Below are positions 17,757 to 46,488 of a DNA stretch of 64,000 nt, in pieces. Numbering within the stretch: position 1 is the first letter of the stretch; each line of letters begins with the position of its first letter. A program made the position numbers and the translations under genes. Source of the DNA: the human T2T-CHM13v2.0 reference genome, Homo sapiens; NCBI RefSeq assembly GCF_009914755.1, contig NC_060930.1. One strand, given 5' to 3'. The notes beneath the pieces are model-generated. The model had not been told where the DNA came from. It did not search any database and worked only from the letters and a program-made list of their open reading frames with translations.

Positions 17757-18131
<375 letters not shown>

Positions 18132-27556: not shown

Positions 27557-27566
27557 TAAAAAAATG

Positions 27567-27818
27567 GGCCAGGCATAGTGGCTCATGCCTGTAATCTCAG
27601 CACTTTGGGAGACAGAGGTGGGAGGATTGTTTGAGCCCAGGAATTTGGGACCAGCTTAGGAAACATAGTGGGATCCTGTCTCTACCCAAAAAAAAAAATT
27701 AGCTGGGTGTGGTGATGCGTGCCTGTGGTTCTAGCTACTTGGGAGGCTGAGGCGGGAGGATCACTCGAGCCCAGGAAGTTGAGGCTGCACTCCAGCCTGT
27801 CTCAGAAAAAAAGAAAAA
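27567..27818 (+). mobile_element. Alu (AluJ-like) with two 3' internal deletions; the only sense Alu seen in intron 2
   Basis: ggccaggcatagtggctcatgcc...gaggctgcactccagcctgtctcag. Confidence 0.9.
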
Positions 27819-29023
27819 TGTAAATGAAAAATATTGGCAAATATGTCCCTAAAACTTACTTATATCATCATTGATTATATATAACGTTCTAATTTCAGAG
27901 ATGTTAATGTATGAAAAAATGTGTGTCCTAGATTCAATGAAATAAACTATGCCTTGAGTGTAGAGGGTAGATTGAGATGGCGTTATAGGTTTGGGCATTA
28001 TCGATATATGATGTGGAAATGAATGAGATCACCCAGGGAGAAGAGATCTAAGATTAGCACTTGGAGAAACATTAACATTTTATGTAGTGAGCAAAGCTCC
28101 AAGGAGGTATTTGAAAAGAAGGGACTAACTTAAGGAAGTGTAAGAACCCAGAAACAACAGAATGAAAGGATTTCAGTAACGTAGAGCAATTAATAGTGTT
28201 AAAAGTGCCATACAGGATGTATGTGTGTTCATTTTAAAGCTTGGAATCAGATTATAGAACCTCTTCTAGATGTTTGAAGGAAGTGGGTGGTTTTTGCTTT
28301 TTTCGCATTAATTGTAAATGATTTTACATGGCAGTATAACATACTAAGCAAATTATACCAAATTAGTCTATATGTCTTCAGTCTTGCTAATTTTAAATTT
28401 AAAATGTTATTGCCCACTTGTTTGTGGCAAAGGAGAAATAAAGGAATAGAATAAACTAACGTCAGTGTTTTTGTCTGTCAACTGTCTTTCAGTTTTTTAT
28501 GAGAATAATCTTAGGGTGCCTTAAGTATTCTTGCATCAATGTGCCTAATTTTATCAATGAGAAAAGTAATCCAGATAATTTACGTGATTTCCTCTTAAGT
28601 TTACACATTTAGCTAATGACAAATGCAGGAATTAAATATATTTTCTCATCCAGGTGTCCGTCAGATCTCCCATGCTGTTTCTTCCTCCTTAAATTGAAGG
28701 TGATTACTTACGGAAATTTGGTTAAATGATTTGATAACTATGCTTTGTAGCATAGAGAGAAATAAACAGCTAGTTTAGGTAATTAGTTGTGAATATAAGA
28801 GAATACAGCAAATACTGGAAAAATGGATAAATTTTTTTAAAATATAGAAAATGTCATATATATTTTTTGATTCCTTTAATTTTTAGGATATGGTATGCTT
28901 TTTTTTCTTCCATTAGCAGTCTGAAAATATAAATATGTGTGAATACCAGTTTTATTGAAAATATTGAGAGTAGCTTCATATTTTAGAGTTATATAATGTT
29001 CTGTTTATTTTTTTTTTTAATAG

Positions 29024-30387
29024 AAAAAATGAATGCACCAAATCAGCCTCCACATAAAGACACTGGAAAAACAGTGGAGAATGTGGAAGAATACAGCTAT
29101 AAGCAGGAGAAAAAGATCCGAGCAGCTCTTAGAACAACAGAGCGTGATCATAAAAAAAATGTACAGTGCTCATTCATGTTAGACTCAGTGGGTGGATCTT
29201 TGCCAAAAAAATCAATTCCAGATGTGGATCTCAATAAGCCTTACCTCAGCCTTGGCTGTAGCAATGCTAAGCTTCCAGTATCTGTGCCCATGCCTATAGC
29301 CAGACCTGCACGCCAGACTTCTAGGACTGACTGTCCAGCAGATCGTTTAAAGTTTTTTGAAACTTTACGACTTTTGCTAAAGCTTACCTCAGTCTCAAAG
29401 AAAAAAGACAGGGAGCAAAGAGGACAAGAAAATACGTCTGGTTTCTGGCTTAACCGATCTAACGAACTGATCTGGTTAGAGCTACAAGCCTGGCATGCAG
29501 GACGGACAATTAACGACCAGGACTTCTTTTTATATACAGCCCGTCAAGCCATCCCAGATATTATTAATGAAATCCTTACTTTCAAAGTCGACTATGGGAG
29601 CTTCGCCTTTGTTAGAGATAGAGCTGGTTTTAATGGTACTTCAGTAGAAGGGCAGTGCAAAGCCACTCCTGGAACAAAGATTGTAGGTTACTCAACACAT
29701 CATGAGCATCTCCAACGCCAGAGGGTCTCATTTGAGCAGGTAAAACGGATAATGGAGCTGCTAGAGTACATAGAAGCACTTTATCCATCATTGCAGGCTC
29801 TTCAGAAGGACTATGAAAAATATGCTGCAAAAGACTTCCAGGACAGGGTGCAGGCACTCTGTTTGTGGTTAAACATCACAAAAGACTTAAATCAGAAATT
29901 AAGGATTATGGGCACTGTTTTGGGCATCAAGAATTTATCAGACATTGGCTGGCCAGTGTTTGAAATCCCTTCCCCTCGACCATCCAAAGGTAATGAGCCG
30001 GAGTATGAGGGTGATGACACAGAAGGAGAATTAAAGGAGTTGGAAAGTAGTACGGATGAGAGTGAAGAAGAACAAATCTCTGATCCTAGGGTACCGGAAA
30101 TCAGACAGCCCATAGATAACAGCTTCGACATCCAGTCGCGGGACTGCATATCCAAGAAGCTTGAGAGGCTCGAATCTGAGGATGATTCTCTTGGCTGGGG
30201 AGCACCAGACTGGAGCACAGAAGCAGGCTTTAGTAGACATTGTCTGACTTCTATTTATAGACCATTTGTAGACAAAGCACTGAAGCAGATGGGGTTAAGA
30301 AAGTTAATTTTAAGACTTCACAAGCTAATGGATGGTTCCTTGCAAAGGGCACGTATAGCATTGGTAAAGAACGATCGTCCAGTGGAG
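29024..30387 (+). CDS. MAP3K4: MAP3K4 exon 3 (1364 nt; EKMNAPNQPP...KNDRPVE, ~aa 115-569), N-terminal regulatory region
   Basis: Poly-T tract + tAG acceptor at 29021-29023 and donor GAG|GTAGGT at 30387/30388. Lies inside the 468-aa ORF 28996..30402; protein recognised as MAP3K4/MTK1. Confidence 0.98.
29024..30387 (+). other. MAP3K4: circMAP3K4: single-exon circular RNA with a 455-aa circle-spanning ORF
   Basis: The back-splice junction ...GTG GAG|AAA AAA TGA gives 453+2 = 455 codons from ATG 29029, agreeing with the recalled circMAP3K4-455aa; inverted Alus flank the exon. Confidence 0.8.
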
Positions 30388-31293
30388 GTAGGTTTCCAGT
30401 AGGTATTAATACAATGATATCCTTAGTTCCATTTATTTATTGCAAATTATAATGTTGGTGTTATGTACTTTCATATTCTAATATTTTTGAACACAAATGG
30501 CAGTTATAAATTGCACATTTAAGCATTTCTGTAAAGTACTATGATTAAATAGATCTATGAAAACTGCATGAAATTTAGTGAATTAAGTGCAGGGTGGTAT
30601 GTGGAGGGAATAAGTTCAACCACGTAAATACAGGATGGCAAAGGACAGGCTGGGTATAAACAAAAATGGAAGGAAGAAAGCCATAGTCATGGATGACCAC
30701 AAGCTGCATGTGAGTCAGGAAAAAAGTCCACGTCACACTCAGGTGTTTATAAATGAATAGGGCGCCCAAGGTCAAGGAGAGAGTTCTTTCTCTATCCTTT
30801 GAAGTTGTTTTCTCTCTTTTGATTAGCATGTCAAGTTTTGGTCACTGTATTTTAAAGAGATGTAAATTATAGAGAAATGTCAGAATGATCAAGGGGAAAA
30901 AGCCAACACTATCTCGCAAGGTTAAAGTGTTCGGTGCAGGTGATGAAAGTTTAAGGGAAGTCCTGATTTTTGTCAGATATGTGTTTCGATATGTGTAGAT
31001 TTTTGTGAGAGGAATGTGCCCACTAGAGGAAGTGACTTGAAAACAGTATAGATTTGCTTTTGATAGCTTGACGTGTTATAAATTCCTTATTGTAAAGGGT
31101 GGTAATACTAGACAAGGGCATTTTGTGGGATATCATTCTTGAGAGTCCAAAATAGTACTGTACAAGTGATTTTGCTTTTCTGGTGAGTTTGCATGTTCGT
31201 CTGGCTAAAAGTGAAACCCAAATCTTTGAAATACCTTATACCCGTGTTAAGTCTGTGATTCTGAATTTTAGTAGCTGTATACATACATATGTA

Positions 31294-33973: not shown

Positions 33974-34413
<440 letters not shown>

Positions 34414-34570
34414 TGAAGGATTTTGTAGAAAAGAAGAAATACACGTGATGTTTGATTTTTCTTATCTATGTCTTTATATATTTTTTGATTACGTTACTTA
34501 TAACCAGTGTTTGCAAAGCACATGTGATCTTACATTTAATTTCCCTTTGTAAGCATGCTTTACAAAATAA

Positions 34571-34878
<308 letters not shown>

Positions 34879-35794
34879 TAAAACTTTATTAATATTTCAA
34901 AATATTTTAAAAGAACTGAACTAGCAATACTAAAAAAAAATCTGTTTGCAGTTTGTTTTCATAATATGAATGCCATAAATGCCTTTAATGATTTGTTCAA
35001 AATTATATGAAGTTGTAGCTCTGTACCTTCTGTAAATTGATTTCCTCAGGACACATTTCTAGTTACATAGGCAGTCTCTAATTGAAACAAATGGATTAGT
35101 TTCCAGAGTCCACTTGAATAGGCAGTTGTTTGGGATCTTGAAAATACTTATCTATAGAAACAGTGTTGTAAATAAGAGAGTCTCAGATTATCAAATGAAA
35201 CTTATTTAAATCCATGTAACTGAACTAATAATACCAGCTGCAGTTTTATCCTGGCTGTAAGGACTACCATGATGGGAAAAAATAAGAGGAAACCTTACCC
35301 TCCCCCATATCCATTTGTGGACCCAGATACAATCCAAGATCTTTTTTATATTTTCTCATTTATCTTCTTCTTCTCTTATTCCATTGCTGTTTAGAACATC
35401 CCAGGATCTTATTGTTTGTACTTATTTTTCCACCTTGCTGTAATACCAGTTCTTCTAGTCTGAGTATTGTTGATCTTGGGTCTTAGGGATGAATGTATCA
35501 GCCATTTCATAATGTATCATGGTCTCTCAATGACAGGGATTGTCTTGCCTCCAACTCTTGCTCCTCTTTCATTAGATGTGCTTGTATGGTGACCCTTCCC
35601 AACCCTGCTTAAAAGTTAACAAGAGTCATCTCAGCAGTCCAGTAGTTTCCAGGTGTCCTTCCCAGCAGTTACTGTAGCTAAGGATGGGTTTTGTAATACT
35701 ATTTACAGTTCAATTTAGCTTAGAAATTAAGACCAAGTAAACATATATAAAAGATTTATCCTTAATATCAAAACTACTGCATACAATTGTATTT

Positions 35795-37330
35795 TTTAGA
35801 GCAAACTTTTCATCTTGGAATAATATCAGATTGATAGAAAATTTGCAAAGATAGTACAGAATTCTTATATGCTCTTCATCCAGCACGCCTTAATATTGAC
35901 TTCTCACTTACCCAATACATTTGTTAAAACTAATATATTAACATTGATACAAAGTGCTGTTAACTAAACTACAGACTTTTATTTGGATTTCCCACTTTTT
36001 CTAATAATTCCCTTTTCTGTTCTAGGAACCAGTCGAGGACACCACATTGCATTTAATTGTCATGTCCATGAATCTGGATTTGTCTGATATGTTCTCATGA
36101 TTAGACTGGGGTGATGGGGCTTGGGAATGGATGCCACAGAGTTGAAATGCCCTAGTCGCATTACATTGTCACTGTTGATGTTAACCTTGATCACTTGGTT
36201 AAGGTGGTGTCTGCTAGGTTTCTCCAGGAGTTACTATTTTTTCCTTTCCATACTCCAATTCTTTGGAAGTAAGTCACCACACACAACCCACTCTCAAGGG
36301 GAGGGAAATTAATCTCTACCTCCTGGAAGGGGGAGTATCTAATGTATTATTTGGAATTTCTCCAGATGGAAGTTTTGCTTCTTCTCATTTATTTGGCCAT
36401 TTATATCAGTATGGACTCATAAATGTTTGCTGTTGTTTTTACTTTGAATTATAATCCAGTACCATTGTTACTGATTTTGTTGCTCAGGCTGTTCTTGTTT
36501 TAGCCCATTGGAGCTCTTTCAGTTGCCTTCTGTGTCGTTTGATATGCTCCCCTCTTTTGTTGTATTATTTTCCTTTTGATTTGCTTTTTGAATCATTTCT
36601 TACTTTCTGGCACCACAAGATGCTCTGGGCTTGTCTTGTATTTTCCCTCGTTCTGTCCTAGGATCAGCCATTTCTCCAAGGAGCTCTGGTTCCTTTTACT
36701 GGATAATTGTATTTAGAAATGAAGATGTGGGCACTGGGTGTGTTCGGTGCTGTTGGGGTGTCATTGCTTTTAGGCCTTCTCAGTGATAGAATTAGAACGT
36801 ACAGGTATGTCTTCTAACCTGTGTATACACACAGATTTATAATTCCCTATCTAAAATAATCATGAGTTCATACTGATGTCTTTCGCTCTGATTCAGCACA
36901 AGGTTCATTCCGACTTTCCTCCCTTGCTTATCTGTAACTTACTTCTCTTATAGTGAGAAACCTGGCTACCATTACTACAATTAATTACATGTTTGTTCAA
37001 CCCTACCATACGTGTAAAGTAGTTTCAGAATTGCTAACCAGTACCCCTGTGAGGAATAAATTTATCAACTAGGGTGTAGTGTTTCAGTCAAGTTCCTTTT
37101 GTCTTTAGCCTTTTATAGTCAAAACACTATTCTCCAAAGTAACTTAGGTCAGCACCTTTTTCCTTCACCTTCCTCAGTGAGGTGGTATCATACTTTTGTA
37201 ATTTAATTAGATTCATTTATTTCATCTGCGTTGCATCCTGGGATCCTCCAAAATCCTGATTGACTTTTTAAAATGTGCATACTCTAAAGTTCACTCTGTA
37301 ATATATAGTTCTATGGGTTTTGTGCAATTT
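35795..37330 (-). mobile_element. Old L1 (L1MC-type) 3' region
   Basis: ttgcaaagatagtacagaattc, taactaaactacagacttt and atcagccatttctccaaggagc motifs. Confidence 0.7.
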
Positions 37331-38589
37331 AAAATGTTAAATACAAAATACTGTAATATGGTTATTTTGTGCTCCTCCTTTTTGATTTCCTTATGAACTT
37401 TATTTTCAGAAGAATAAGATGAATATATTGTAATGTAATGTACAAAATGTATAATTGTCTGACTTTGTTGCCTCAAATACTGGGAATATTTTTGTTTTGA
37501 TTACTGTCTTAATTGCTTTCTTTAGAATTAGAAACGATCATGTAGTTATTATAAATTTAATGGCCAATGAAATACTCTTTGTGTTTGGATTCTAACAATA
37601 GTTGTGCTAATTTTTTCCTGTACACACAGGAAACACTGAAGAGGTTGCCGTTTATATTCAAAGCAGACAAAGCATGTAGAAACTAGGAAATCAATAACAG
37701 CAGCTACCATTTATTGACTCTCACAGTGTTCCAGACTCAACAACCCTGTGAGGTGGTGCATTTTCCAAATGCAGAAACCAGTTTAGGTACAGTAGATAAC
37801 TTTCACAAAAATCACAGAGCTGTAGATTGTTAGAGGGATTCAAATTCAGGATTCTGGGATACCAGACTTTATCCTACATGGTTTCCAAACCTGGCTGCAC
37901 CTCAGCATTACCTAGAGGGCTTTTAAAAATACGTGTGCCTAGCCATTCTGAGAGTAGGACAAGTCAGAATCTCCCAGTGGGGGACACGAGCACTGACATT
38001 GTAAACAAACCTCCTGTGTGCCTCACGTGAAGCTAGACCAGCAACAGTGTAGTTCTGGTACTCACTGGAAACACTGATTAGGCTCCAGTGCTCTTCCGCC
38101 CCATGCCTTTAAGATCATGCTGCTTAATACAGTTGTTAGAGTTAACTTATTACTTGTTTCAATCATTCCCTGTCTGATTTCATAAGATTACAAGAACTTT
38201 GTAATTGAATGACACACTAACAAGCACATACTTGCTCATTTGCCTTTAGGTTTTCTGTTTTCTTAAACATACAAACATACAAAGGAAAGTAGGAAGTTGT
38301 GTACATTATTTTGGACTATAGTGAGCAAACCGACTCAAACTGATGTAATATCACAGGTAGGATAGAAGTCATCAACTTTGAGCTGAGAACTGGATCCCGT
38401 GATAACAACAGCACAATAGTAATATTGAGAAGACTAGTAGCTAGCATTAACTGAACACTCGCTACATGCCGGGGCAAGGAAGAGGGCTAAGTAACTTGAT
38501 CAGGTCACAAATCTAGAAAGTGGCAGAGCCAGGATATGAACCCAGAGCTCTGGCTGTAAAGCCATGTATGCTCTTGACAGTGTACAGTC

Positions 38590-38857
38590 TCCCAAAGTTA
38601 CATTTTGTCCCACACAGTGTTTTAAATATTTTTTTTGACTTAGTGTCTAATATTTTTAAATGGGAAAATCCAGATTTTGGGTTTTCCTAGAAATACTGGG
38701 AAGTCTGTCAACACTGGGTCCACATTCCCACATGACCAGCAGCATAAGGGCTCCAGGTTACCACAGTATCCATCATTTGTCTTATGGCCACCCAAGTACA
38801 CCTGTTTACATGACTTACTGGGCCTGTGTAGAAATTGCAGTTTGTGATAGGATCCCA
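38590..38857. mobile_element. MER102-like hAT-Charlie remnant
   Basis: caacactgggtccacattcccacatg...gcagtttgtga. Confidence 0.55.
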
Positions 38858-39550
38858 GTATAGAATCACAGAAACTGACTTTTGAAGGGTAATGTAAAGG
38901 CTATTTGTATCTAACACTTTTTTAAAAAACAGTATGCTTTTGTTTTATTTATTGGAGTATATTTTTGAAGTCCCTGTCCTCTGTCACTGCTCAGAGTAAT
39001 TATCATCTGGTTTATATTTTCTAGAGTTTTTTGTGATTCTATAAATTATGTCTTTGTTATGTAACACATGTAATTTTTTACAACAAATGTGATAATGCTA
39101 TACATAATCCTACTACAACTTGAAGGGTTTCCCCCGTGTTGTCTACTTTGGATCTGTCCTTGTAGATATATATATATATATATAGCTCTCGTTGTTAAAT
39201 TCCATTTAACAACTACATGATATTCCATTCTATGAATGTACCATAACTTATTTAATTATTTCACTCTTGATGGAAATGTAATTTTTTTGCTTGTGTAAAC
39301 AATGTAGCCACAGACATTCTTGTACACACCCCTTTATGAACTTATTCTGTTGTTTTTGTAAGAATGCTTAATTGAAGTGGAATTGTTAGGTCATGGGGTA
39401 TATGCACATTCACATCTTTGATATGTATTGCCAAATTGCTCTCCAAAAAGACTATACTAATTTATACTTAAAACAGTGCAGGAGAAATTTGATTTTTCCT
39501 CATTTTTATAACCATGATCAGCAAAAAATGTTATTTCATTGATTGATTGA

Positions 39551-39847
<297 letters not shown>

Positions 39848-41013
39848 TAAATCTTTCTCTTCATTTCTAGTGACACTGAGCCTGTTTTTCATGTTTATTG
39901 GCCATTTGCATGTCTTTTCGTTTGCTTATTTATTTTGCTCATTTTCTGTTAGGCTGCCTTTCTATTATTGATCTGTTGGAACTATTTATGAATTTTATTC
40001 ATTTTTCTATGATGGTTGTAAATACTTCTTTCAATTTGCCTTTTAACTTGTTTAGGATACTTAACACTGTATAGAAATTTCACATTTTTATATAGTCATG
40101 TCTGTTGTTATTTTATGACTACCTTATTTTATTTGTACTCAGAGATTATTTTAAAATTTTATAATTGTCATGGTTTTCTTTTTACACTTTGAATCAGTTT
40201 GCAAATAATGTCCATGTGTTATCATTGTTCATTATATTTCTAAAGTGTTTTAGTCTGTAGATTCCCCCTGCCTTTTTTTTTTTTGCCATATATGAAGAAG
40301 CAGGGTCATTTATCCTGTAGGGTCTGAATTTTTATGATTGTATCCCAGTTGCCCCACATGTTTCTATTTTCTGTGTCTTCTCTGTGAATTGGCTGTAAAA
40401 TAGAGTGGCTTGATCAAATTCAGGATTTTTTAATTGGTTGGTTGTATTAACACTACTTTCCCAGGACACACACATATCTGACTATTTGTGCCATTAGTAG
40501 TAGTTGATGAACATTGCCTAGATTCCTTAATACATTAAGGGCTGAAAAGTGAGGATATTCTAATTCTCTCATTTCTTCTTCATTTATTAGCTTCTTTATT
40601 ATTCATTTCATTTATTAGATATTGCTATAAGGATAAACTTTTCCTCACCTATTATATGGTTACTTAGTGGAATAGTTGACACAAATGGCAAGATTAATGT
40701 GCTTGATTCTTTACCTTTTATTTACTATTTTTTAAAATAATGATGTGGTTTATTGATGACTAATTAGTGTTATTAGTATGATTTTGAACTCATGAATTTA
40801 AACATATTTGGTATGTTTCAATCCATGGATGTCATTAATGTATTGAAGTAATTATTGTAATTAATGTTCACGTCCCATCTTTGGACAATGGGAACATATT
40901 CAATTGGCTTGACTCCTTTTTTCACAGTCCTTTGATAGCTTCCATGTTATTTAGTGTAACTGGCTATCCTAGGCTGACATTGTATATCTGTTCCAGGTTG
41001 AGAGTCAGATATG

Positions 41014-41330
41014 TTTTGTTTTCTTTTTCTTTTTTTTTTTTTTTTTTTGAGAAGGAGTGTCACTCTTTTGCCCAGGCTAGAGTGCAGTGGCGTGATCTTG
41101 GCTCACTGCAACCTGTGTCTCCCTGGCTCAAGTGGTTCTCGTGCCTCAGCCTCCTGAGTAGCTGGGATTACAGGCATGCGCCACCACGCCCAGGTAATTT
41201 TTTGTATTTTTAGTAGAGACGGGTTTACACCATGTTGGCCAGCCCGGTCTCAAACTCTGACCTCAAGTGATCTGCCGGCCTCGGCCTCCCAGAGTGCTGA
41301 GATTACAGGCACGAGCCACCGCGCCCGGCC
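41014..41330 (-). mobile_element. Alu (AluS)
   Basis: Full antisense dimer with a long T tract. Confidence 0.92.

Positions 41331-45984: not shown

Positions 45985-46488
<504 letters not shown>

What the first reader, a model, noticed from the sequence alone, without database searches (positions are those of the whole stretch)
29024..30387. Exon 3 circle encodes a self-closing 455-aa ORF whose stop overlaps its own start
Seen in the sequence: the exon starts AAAAAATGAATG and ends ...GTGGAG. It is 1364 nt (not a multiple of 3), with an ATG at 29029 open for 453 codons to the donor. Back-splicing gives GAG|AAA AAA TGA, so the ORF is 455 aa ending ...RPVEKK. The TGA (29030-29032) overlaps the ATG (29029-29031), so every base of the circle is coding and there is no separate UTR or IRES. 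Recalled knowledge: an m6A-driven circMAP3K4-455aa peptide has been reported in liver cancer, and the length matches exactly. Inference: the ATGA stop-start overlap could allow termination-reinitiation, giving repeated rounds of translation.
Basis: partly seen in the sequence, partly recalled or inferred. Interest (0 to 1): 0.85.

Follow-up and report, generated by a model that had tools for sequence, protein, structure and literature searches.

The report
Known circMAP3K4 circle, 455-aa ORF

Summary
The exon at 29024-30387 is 1364 nt (2 mod 3). It starts AAAAAATGAATG and ends GTGGAG. The ATG at 29029 is open for 453 codons to the donor. After back-splicing the frame reads AAA AAA TGA, giving 455 aa ending NDRPVEKK, and the TGA (29030-29032) overlaps the ATG.

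It is already in print. Duan et al. 2022 (PMC8976336) describe hsa_circ_0078619, the 1364-nt exon-3 circle. They report circMAP3K4-455aa with "only two unique amino acids", two inactive predicted IRESs, and m6A/IGF2BP1-dependent translation. Their sites A787 and A862 fall on GGACT and AGACT in the window. A second laboratory confirmed the same circle.

The frame is simply the native MAP3K4 frame (Pfam MEKK4_N). The overlap is not beyond chance. In 20,000 codon shuffles, 23.6% gave a full-circle ORF and 6.2% the exact ATGA overlap. The start Met is missing in 10 of 68 placental taxa.

The reinitiation idea is untested for this circle and was already proposed in general terms (PMC7697609). No TURBS-like motif lies nearby, a competing AUG follows the stop, and a no-UTR reporter circle failed to translate (PMC9242994). 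Verdict: already known, low interest.

The parts
29024..30387 (+). MAP3K4 exon 3, 1364 nt; this is the whole body of the single-exon circle hsa_circ_0078619 (circMAP3K4)
   Evidence: AG|exon|GT boundaries and length. Same length and same exon in PMC8976336 and PMC9022258.
29029..29031 (+). ATG that starts the circle ORF; it is an internal Met codon of native MAP3K4 (native context ...NLKEK-M-NAPN)
   Evidence: Changing this ATG to CTG abolished the product in PMC8976336, section 9.
29030..29032 (+). TGA stop, reached only after back-splicing (GAG|AAA AAA TGA); it shares TG with the start codon, forming ATGA
   Evidence: Circular ORF walk; sequence.
29024..29029 (+). A6 run. In the circle it is read as the two circle-specific Lys codons, and it lies directly 5' of and overlapping the AUG
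   Evidence: AAAAAA served as the positive-control IRES-like hexamer in PMC9242994 (Fig. 1f legend). Any role here is inference.
29033..29182 (+). Second ATG, directly after the TGA and in the frame of the stop, opening a 49-aa ORF; it would compete for any ribosome reinitiating after the stop
29810..29810 (+). Circle position 787, the A of GGACT; a published m6A site
   Evidence: maps A787 from PMC8976336, section 10.
29885..29885 (+). Circle position 862, the A of AGACT; the published m6A site whose A-to-C change lowered the 455-aa product and IGF2BP1 binding
   Evidence: maps A862 from PMC8976336, section 10.
27557..27789 (+). Alu-like repeat in the upstream intron, about 1.2-1.5 kb before the exon; it is reverse-complementary to repeats in the downstream intron
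   Evidence: pairs I7-I13 (72-77% complementary over 82-134 nt).
34198..34864 (-). Two minus-strand Alu elements in the downstream intron, about 3.8-4.5 kb after the exon, that can pair with the upstream repeat; further partners lie at 39623-39836 and 41107-41208
   Evidence: I7, I9, I12, I13; also I8, I10, I11.

Best explanation
This is the published single-exon circular RNA circMAP3K4 (hsa_circ_0078619). Back-splicing joins the exon-3 donor (after 30387) to the exon-3 acceptor (before 29024), probably helped by inverted Alu pairs in the two flanking introns. The long open frame is the normal MAP3K4 coding frame, covering the N-terminal regulatory region (Pfam MEKK4_N). It begins at an internal Met two codons into the exon. 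The exon ends on a codon boundary and is 2 mod 3 long, so the frame shifts at the junction. It then reads Lys-Lys from the A6 run and stops at the TGA inside ATGA. According to the published work, the product is a 455-aa kinase-less fragment of MAP3K4 plus KK. Its translation does not use the two predicted IRESs but depends on m6A (A862, and A787 together with A862) read by IGF2BP1. The stop/start overlap is best read as a by-product of where a Met codon happens to sit in a coding exon, not as a selected device. The geometry, the identity with the published circle and the mapping of the m6A sites are shown here. Alu-driven circularisation and the chance origin of the overlap are inferred. Translation of the endogenous circle rests on one paper.
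For: Geometry. Native frame: Pfam MEKK4_N, E 4e-257, residues 1-453; the 120 relatives listed are all named (or, in two rows, Pfam-marked) MAP3K4 gene products of placental mammals. [quoted passage not shown] The paper's A787 and A862 fall on GGACT and AGACT when numbered from 29024. Independent confirmation of the same circle by RNase R, divergent primers and Sanger sequencing: PMC9022258. Inverted repeats across the exon: 7 of the 13 pairs bridge the two introns; Alu heads on the minus strand downstream. Chance level: codon shuffles gave 23.6% full-circle ORFs and 6.2% ATGA overlaps. No extra constraint on the start: Met is kept in 58 of 68 placental taxa. Column identity is 0.85 against a mean of 0.914 and a median of 1.0, which puts it among the least conserved 14% of columns. 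Precedents for overlapping start and stop in circles: circ-AKT3 with UAAUGA (PMC6716823) and circ-SHPRH with UGAUGA (PMC8874284).
Against: Endogenous translation rests on one study. Its antibody recognises MAP3K4 residues 150-250, which are shared with the full-length protein. The band runs at about 63-65 kDa, while I calculate 52.1 kDa; the authors report that the tagged ORF co-migrates with it. The main text read does not say whether the mass-spectrometry peptide spans the junction. The supplement could not be opened. Plasmid-expressed circles can yield the same protein from trans-spliced linear by-products, as shown for circZNF609 (PMC7544230, abstract). The inverted repeats are only 72-77% complementary and compete with pairs inside each intron (I1-I4 and I6). 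The conservation test is at protein level only; no vertebrate DNA collection was available to check ATGA or exon length directly.
Confidence: 0.85

Rival explanations
1. Termination-reinitiation loop. A ribosome that terminates at the TGA keeps its 40S subunit on the circle, slips back one base to the overlapping AUG and starts again. One loading event would then yield many copies of the 455-aa protein.
For: The stop and start do overlap (ATGA). [quoted passage not shown] Both predicted IRESs were inactive, so initiation seems to be rate-limiting and recycling would help. Part of circMAP3K4 sedimented with polysomes.
Against: No experiment has addressed it for this circle. No paper in the library holds both 'circMAP3K4' and 'start-stop'. 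From my own knowledge, reinitiation after a long ORF in eukaryotes is normally inefficient unless a TURBS-type element with a UGGGA motif lies within about 100 nt upstream. The only + strand TGGGA in the exon is at 29595, about 790 nt before the junction. A second AUG at 29033 follows the stop in the scanning direction and opens a 49-aa ORF. In PMC9242994 a GFP circle with all untranslated bases between start and stop removed gave no product, and circles with a stop yielded much less than rolling circles. The Met and ATGA are absent in 10 of 68 placental taxa. Predicted accessibility around the AUG is ordinary: unpaired probability 0.447 against a mean of 0.416, with 42% of windows at least as open.
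Confidence: 0.06
2. The circle exists, but in cells it is essentially non-coding. It might act as a microRNA or protein sponge. The reported 455-aa protein would then come mainly from overexpression constructs or from linear by-products.
For: For circZNF609, apparent translation came from trans-spliced by-products and no endogenous protein was found (PMC7544230, abstract). A review and a preprint repeat the caveat about back-splicing reporters (PMC11724312). The second circMAP3K4 paper treats the circle as a miR-6795-5p sponge (PMC9022258, title). The antibody used is not circle-specific, and only KK is unique to the product. An ORF of this kind arises by chance in 23.6% of codon shuffles.
Against: Duan et al. 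report that the endogenous band fell with circle-specific siRNA or shRNA, and with METTL3 or IGF2BP1 knock-down, without loss of the circle RNA. They also report polysome association, loss of product with the ATG-to-CTG circle, and loss with the A862C change.
Confidence: 0.25
3. Initiation on the circle is driven by the A-rich tract at the junction (GAG|AAAAAAUG) acting as a short IRES-like element that recruits PABPC1 or similar factors, with m6A only modulating it.
For: AAAAAA was the positive-control IRES-like hexamer, and PABPC1 promoted translation of a poly-A-bearing circle, in PMC9242994. The A6 run lies directly before the AUG, and A1-A5 are predicted unpaired with probability 0.85-0.99. 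Two AAGAAG hexamers, the active element of circPFAS, lie at 30065 and 30154.
Against: It has not been tested for this circle. [quoted passage not shown] The same paper's no-UTR GFP circle with a stop codon was silent. Published mutagenesis points to A862 and IGF2BP1. The AUGAAUG itself is predicted to be paired, with unpaired probability 0.00-0.04.
Confidence: 0.1

Closest known systems
circMAP3K4 / hsa_circ_0078619 and circMAP3K4-455aa (Duan et al., Mol Cancer 2022, PMC8976336)
   Same: It is the same object: exon 3 of MAP3K4, 1364 nt, a 455-aa ORF with two unique C-terminal residues, and m6A sites that map onto DRACH motifs in the window.
   Different: Nothing differs in the sequence. The main text read never mentions that the stop overlaps the start ('stop codon' occurs 0 times).
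circ-AKT3 (AKT3-174aa, 'UAAUGA') and circ-SHPRH (SHPRH-146aa, 'UGAUGA'): circles with overlapping start and stop codons
   Same: In each, the ORF runs once round the whole circle, crosses the junction and ends at a stop that shares bases with its own AUG. The product is a host-protein fragment with a few unique C-terminal residues.
   Different: By my reading of the quoted UAAUGA and UGAUGA strings, those two share one base (the stop's last A is the A of the AUG); here four bases form ATGA, with the stop one base downstream of the AUG. Those circles span several exons and are reported as IRES-driven. This one is a single exon reported as m6A-driven.
Viral termination-reinitiation at overlapping stop/start codons (calicivirus TURBS; influenza B M1/BM2 UAAUG); recalled knowledge, not checked in a paper here
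   Different: Those systems need an upstream element with a UGGGA motif complementary to 18S rRNA close to the stop/start. No such motif lies within about 790 nt upstream here.
Rolling-circle (infinite) ORF circRNAs (PMC9242994; PMC11724312)
   Same: The circle has no untranslated bases, and translation passes through the back-splice junction.
   Different: The length is not a multiple of 3 and a stop is met three codons after the junction, so only one lap is translated.

Membership tests
Exonic circular RNA made by back-splicing (hsa_circ_0078619) | Canonical AG acceptor and GT donor bounding the circularised exon | tested here: met
   TAATAG|AAAAAA at 29024 and GTGGAG|GTAGGT after 30387.
Exonic circular RNA made by back-splicing (hsa_circ_0078619) | Experimentally observed back-splice junction and RNase R resistance | not testable with these tools
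   Reported by two laboratories: PMC8976336 (Sanger, RNase R, northern) and PMC9022258 (RNase R, divergent primers, Sanger). I read the text only; no reads were examined.
Exonic circular RNA made by back-splicing (hsa_circ_0078619) | Same span as the database entry | tested here: met
   The hg19 span 161,469,647-161,471,011 is 1364 nt, equal to the exon length. The paper's positions 787 and 862 hit GGACT and AGACT when counted from 29024.
Exonic circular RNA made by back-splicing (hsa_circ_0078619) | Inverted repeats in the flanking introns (usual, not obligatory) | tested here: met
   The repeat at 27557-27789 is complementary to 34198-34864, 39623-39836 and 41107-41208, at 72-77% over 82-134 nt. 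Alu head motifs lie on the minus strand downstream.
Translated circRNA with a junction-spanning ORF | AUG-initiated ORF that crosses the junction and ends at a stop | tested here: met
   455 codons from 29029, stop at 29030-29032.
Translated circRNA with a junction-spanning ORF | Junction-specific peptide or ribosome footprints from the endogenous circle | not testable with these tools
   PMC8976336 reports mass spectrometry of a gel slice around 65 kDa and polysome association.
Termination-reinitiation (TURBS-type) stop/start overlap | Stop and start codons overlapping or adjacent | tested here: met
   ATGA at 29029-29032.
Termination-reinitiation (TURBS-type) stop/start overlap | UGGGA-type motif complementary to 18S rRNA within about 100 nt upstream of the stop/start (feature recalled from memory) | tested here: not met
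   The only + strand TGGGA in the exon is at 29595-29599, about 790 nt upstream of the junction.
Termination-reinitiation (TURBS-type) stop/start overlap | Conservation of the overlap among relatives | tested here: not met
   The Met is absent in 10 of 68 placental taxa: 6 mustelids have T, walrus V, Ictidomys A, Sciurus L and Ctenodactylus L. This is protein level only.
MAP3K4 / MEKK4 N-terminal regulatory region (Pfam PF19431) | Significant match to the family profile | tested here: met
   E 4e-257, 856.6 bits against a cut-off of 24.9; residues 1-453 match profile positions 67-508 of 1201.

The most novel reading that the evidence does not exclude
The ATGA overlap, together with the A6 run formed at the junction, lets a terminating 40S subunit re-engage the AUG one base upstream. 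Each rare m6A-dependent loading event would then be amplified into several rounds of synthesis. This would be a primate- or lineage-restricted gain, since several mammalian lineages lack the Met.
Probability: 0.05. Interest if true: 0.55.

Novelty: already known. Interest (0 to 1): 0.12.

Why it matters
The circle and its 455-aa product were published in 2022, linked to cisplatin resistance in liver cancer, and are widely reviewed. This window therefore adds no new object. What this check adds is a base rate: a self-closing ORF of this kind arises in about a quarter of codon-shuffled versions of the exon. It also shows that the start Met is one of the less conserved residues of the exon. The stop/start overlap should therefore not be read as designed. 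If coupled reinitiation were nevertheless shown, it would give a simple rule for making circular RNAs more productive. Published reporter data point the other way.

Tried and rejected
Whether the mass-spectrometry peptide spans the junction, and what controls for linear by-products were run, therefore stays open.
3. One paper reading failed because a term was too short. It was corrected and repeated.
4. DNA-level conservation of ATGA and of exon length mod 3 in other mammals: no vertebrate DNA collection is offered, so only protein-level inference was possible. Mouse and rat were not among the 120 proteins listed.
5. The representative search (300 hits at E<=0.001, 150 listed) added only two deep relatives that align across the start. 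P0122 has KEKMS and P0124 has AEKVA with no Met.
6. Solved structures: 0 matches at E<=0.01.
7. Circular folding of the exon: the start region is neither unusually open nor unusually closed, so it gives no argument either way.
8. Mass mismatch: I considered whether 52.1 kDa calculated against about 63-65 kDa observed points to a different product. I set this aside because the paper says the tagged 455-aa ORF co-migrates with the band.
9. P0123, a 478-aa database protein starting at this Met: its tail (PVE-VGFQQ...) shows it is a mechanical read-through of the donor into the intron in another mammal, not evidence for a circle product.

Full report
**1. The observation.**
The window shows ...TTTTTTTTTAATAG|AAAAAATGAATGCACC... 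at 29024 and ...CGTCCAGTGGAG|GTAGGT... after 30387. These are a normal acceptor with a pyrimidine tract and a normal donor. The exon is 1364 nt, which is 2 mod 3. From the ATG at 29029 the frame is open for 453 codons to the last exon base (P0001: MNAPNQ...NDRPVE).

A script treated the exon as a circle and walked each of its 25 ATGs. Seven give ORFs that cross the junction, all in one frame and all ending at 29030-29032. The longest starts at 29029 and has 455 codons ending ALVKNDRPVEKK. The ORF plus stop is 1368 nt on a 1364-nt circle, so ATGA (29029-32) is read twice and every base lies in the ORF.

**2. What it is.**
The frame is the ordinary MAP3K4 coding frame. P0001 matches Pfam MEKK4_N over all 453 residues (E 4e-257). 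The 120 best longer relatives are all MAP3K4 gene products of placental mammals: 118 rows are named mitogen-activated protein kinase kinase kinase 4 or MAP3K4, and two rows with uninformative names carry the same Pfam set. In the native mRNA the junction of exons 2 and 3 reads ...NLKEK-M-NAPN, and exon 4 continues ...PVE-FSEFPDP. The ATG is therefore an internal Met codon lying two codons into a coding exon. The stop exists only because back-splicing shifts the frame.

**3. It is already published.**
- **Duan et al. 2022** (PMC8976336). I read the abstract and sections 9, 10 and 14, plus passages from sections 6 and 7.
  - They describe circMAP3K4 = hsa_circ_0078619, hg19 chr6:161,469,647-161,471,011 (a span of 1364), "derived from exon 3".
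  - The circle was verified by Sanger sequencing of the junction, RNase R, actinomycin D and a junction-probe northern blot.
  - An ATG-to-CTG change abolished the product.
  - Two predicted IRESs (83-210 and 1166-1302) were inactive.
  - The product fell after METTL3 knock-down, ALKBH5 or FTO overexpression, and IGF2BP1 knock-down.
  - The A862C and A787/862C changes lowered both the product and IGF2BP1 binding.
- **Mapping check.** Counting from 29024, positions 787 and 862 are 29810 and 29885. They sit in GGACT and AGACT. This independently ties the paper's numbering to this exon.
- **Du et al. 2022** (PMC9022258, passages). A second group confirmed the same circle (circ_0078619, same coordinates) by RNase R, divergent primers and Sanger sequencing.
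- **Extent of citation.** The first search found 151 papers holding 'circMAP3K4' or '455aa'.

**4. How the circle probably forms.**
Thirteen inverted-repeat pairs of at least 80 nt lie in the two flanking introns. Seven of them (I7-I13) join the upstream repeat at 27557-27789 to downstream repeats at 34198-34864, 39623-39836 and 41107-41208. Complementarity is 72-77% over 82-134 nt. An eighth pair (I5) also bridges the exon, joining 17867-18010 to 46188-46331 at 88% over 144 nt.

This fits a plus-strand Alu-like element upstream pairing with minus-strand Alus downstream. Pairs within a single intron (I1-I4, I6) would compete. Alu-assisted back-splicing is an inference from this anatomy and from general knowledge of circRNA biogenesis.

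**5. Is the stop/start overlap more than chance?**
It is not.
- **Shuffles.** I shuffled the exon's own 454 codons 20,000 times, keeping the phases. A stop at or after the first in-frame ATG (every base coding) occurred in 23.6% of shuffles. The exact ATGA overlap occurred in 6.2%. A unique tail of 2 codons or fewer occurred in 11.5%. Once a Met codon sits at exon bases 6-8, the overlap needs only an A at the next base.
- **Conservation.** One sequence per taxon was taken from the 120 proteins. Of 68 placental taxa, 58 keep the Met and 10 lack it: six mustelids have Thr, walrus Val, Ictidomys Ala, Sciurus Leu and Ctenodactylus Leu.
  - Identity at that column is 0.85, against a mean of 0.914 and a median of 1.0.
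  - 278 of 453 columns are invariant, and the Met column is among the least conserved 14%.
  - Of the other six in-frame Met codons, four are kept in 68 of 68 taxa, one in 67 and one in 61.
  - Two deeper unnamed relatives show KEKMS and AEKVA.
- **Limits.** This is protein-level evidence only. No vertebrate DNA collection was available. Mouse and rat were not among the listed hits.

**6. The reinitiation idea.**
The idea is not new as a general proposal. Prats et al. [quoted passage not shown] Overlapping codons are described for circ-AKT3 (UAAUGA; PMC6716823) and circ-SHPRH (UGAUGA; PMC8874284).

For circMAP3K4 nobody appears to have raised it. No paper in the library holds 'circMAP3K4' together with 'start-stop'. 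The primary paper's main text has 0 occurrences of 'stop codon'. Figures are not held, so Fig. 3A may show the overlap.

The evidence I could gather goes against an efficient loop:
- **(a) No nearby TURBS-type motif.** The only + strand TGGGA in the exon is at 29595, about 790 nt before the junction. From my own knowledge, known eukaryotic termination-reinitiation after long ORFs needs such a motif close by.
- **(b) A competing AUG.** A second AUG at 29033 follows the TGA directly and opens a 49-aa ORF (29033-29182). A 40S subunit moving 5' to 3' would meet it first.
- **(c) Reporter data.** In Fan et al. 2022 (PMC9242994, passages), a GFP circle from which all untranslated sequence between start and stop had been deleted gave no GFP. 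[quoted passage not shown]
- **(d) Lineage losses.** The Met is lost in several mammalian lineages.
- **(e) Ordinary accessibility.** In the circular fold the region round the AUG is ordinary: a 31-nt unpaired probability of 0.447 against a mean of 0.416, with 42% of windows at least as open.

**7. Other points on mechanism.**
The A6 run lies directly before the AUG in the circle (GAG|AAAAAAUG). AAAAAA was the positive-control IRES-like hexamer in Fan et al., and PABPC1 promoted translation of a poly-A-bearing circle. The same paper notes that such hexamers are so common that any sequence longer than 50 nt should carry one. This is a lead, not a finding.

**8. Caveats on the published translation claim.**
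- I calculate 52.1 kDa and pI 8.0 for the 455-aa product. The reported band is about 63-65 kDa. The authors say the tagged ORF co-migrates with it and ascribe the shift to structure.
- The antibody recognises MAP3K4 residues 150-250 and is not circle-specific.
- Only KK is unique to the product. The diagnostic tryptic peptide would be NDRPVEK(K), against NDRPVEFSEF... in the linear protein.
- For circZNF609, apparent translation from an overexpression plasmid came from trans-spliced linear by-products (PMC7544230, abstract). Later reviews repeat this caution (PMC11724312). I therefore keep a 0.25 rival that the endogenous circle is largely non-coding.

**9. Verdict.**
The stop/start overlap is real but at chance level and not specially conserved. 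The reinitiation inference is unsupported and partly contradicted. Interest is low.

Noticed in passing
29033-29182 (+): An ATG directly follows the circle's TGA (TGA|ATG) in the same frame and opens a 49-aa ORF (MHQISLHIKT...YSAHSC). In species where the upstream ATG is ACG, GTG or similar, the circle frame would have no TGA at 29030. By my inference (no orthologous DNA was read) it would then run on through this frame, giving a tail of about 50 residues in place of KK.
   Followed up: partly
29029-29031; proteins P0038, P0047, P0068, P0075, P0080-P0086, P0088, P0092-P0096, P0120: The Met that starts the circle ORF is replaced in six mustelid genera (Thr), walrus (Val), Ictidomys (Ala), Sciurus (Leu) and Ctenodactylus (Leu). 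Marmota, in the same family as the two squirrels, keeps it.
   Followed up: yes
27557-27789 (+) versus 34198-34864, 39623-39836 and 41107-41208 (-): Inverted Alu-like pairs bridge exon 3 at 72-77% complementarity. Stronger pairs (80-82% over 137-233 nt) lie within the downstream intron alone (46131-46372 with 33994-41257) and would compete with them.
   Followed up: partly
30388-30402 (+): If the exon-3 donor is not used, the frame runs only five codons into the intron (PVE-VGFQ-stop). The mechanical ORF 28996-30402 and the database protein P0123 from another mammal (a 478-aa read-through model) are of this kind.
   Followed up: partly
29152-29159, 29205-29211, 29401-29406 (+): Three further A runs (A8, A7, A6) lie in the first 400 nt of the exon, which is 32.6% A overall. 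Two AAGAAG hexamers lie at 30065 and 30154.
   Followed up: no
whole window: TGGGA occurs 207 times on both strands against 146 +/- 12 in dinucleotide shuffles. This is probably because the motif is part of the many Alu copies.
   Followed up: no
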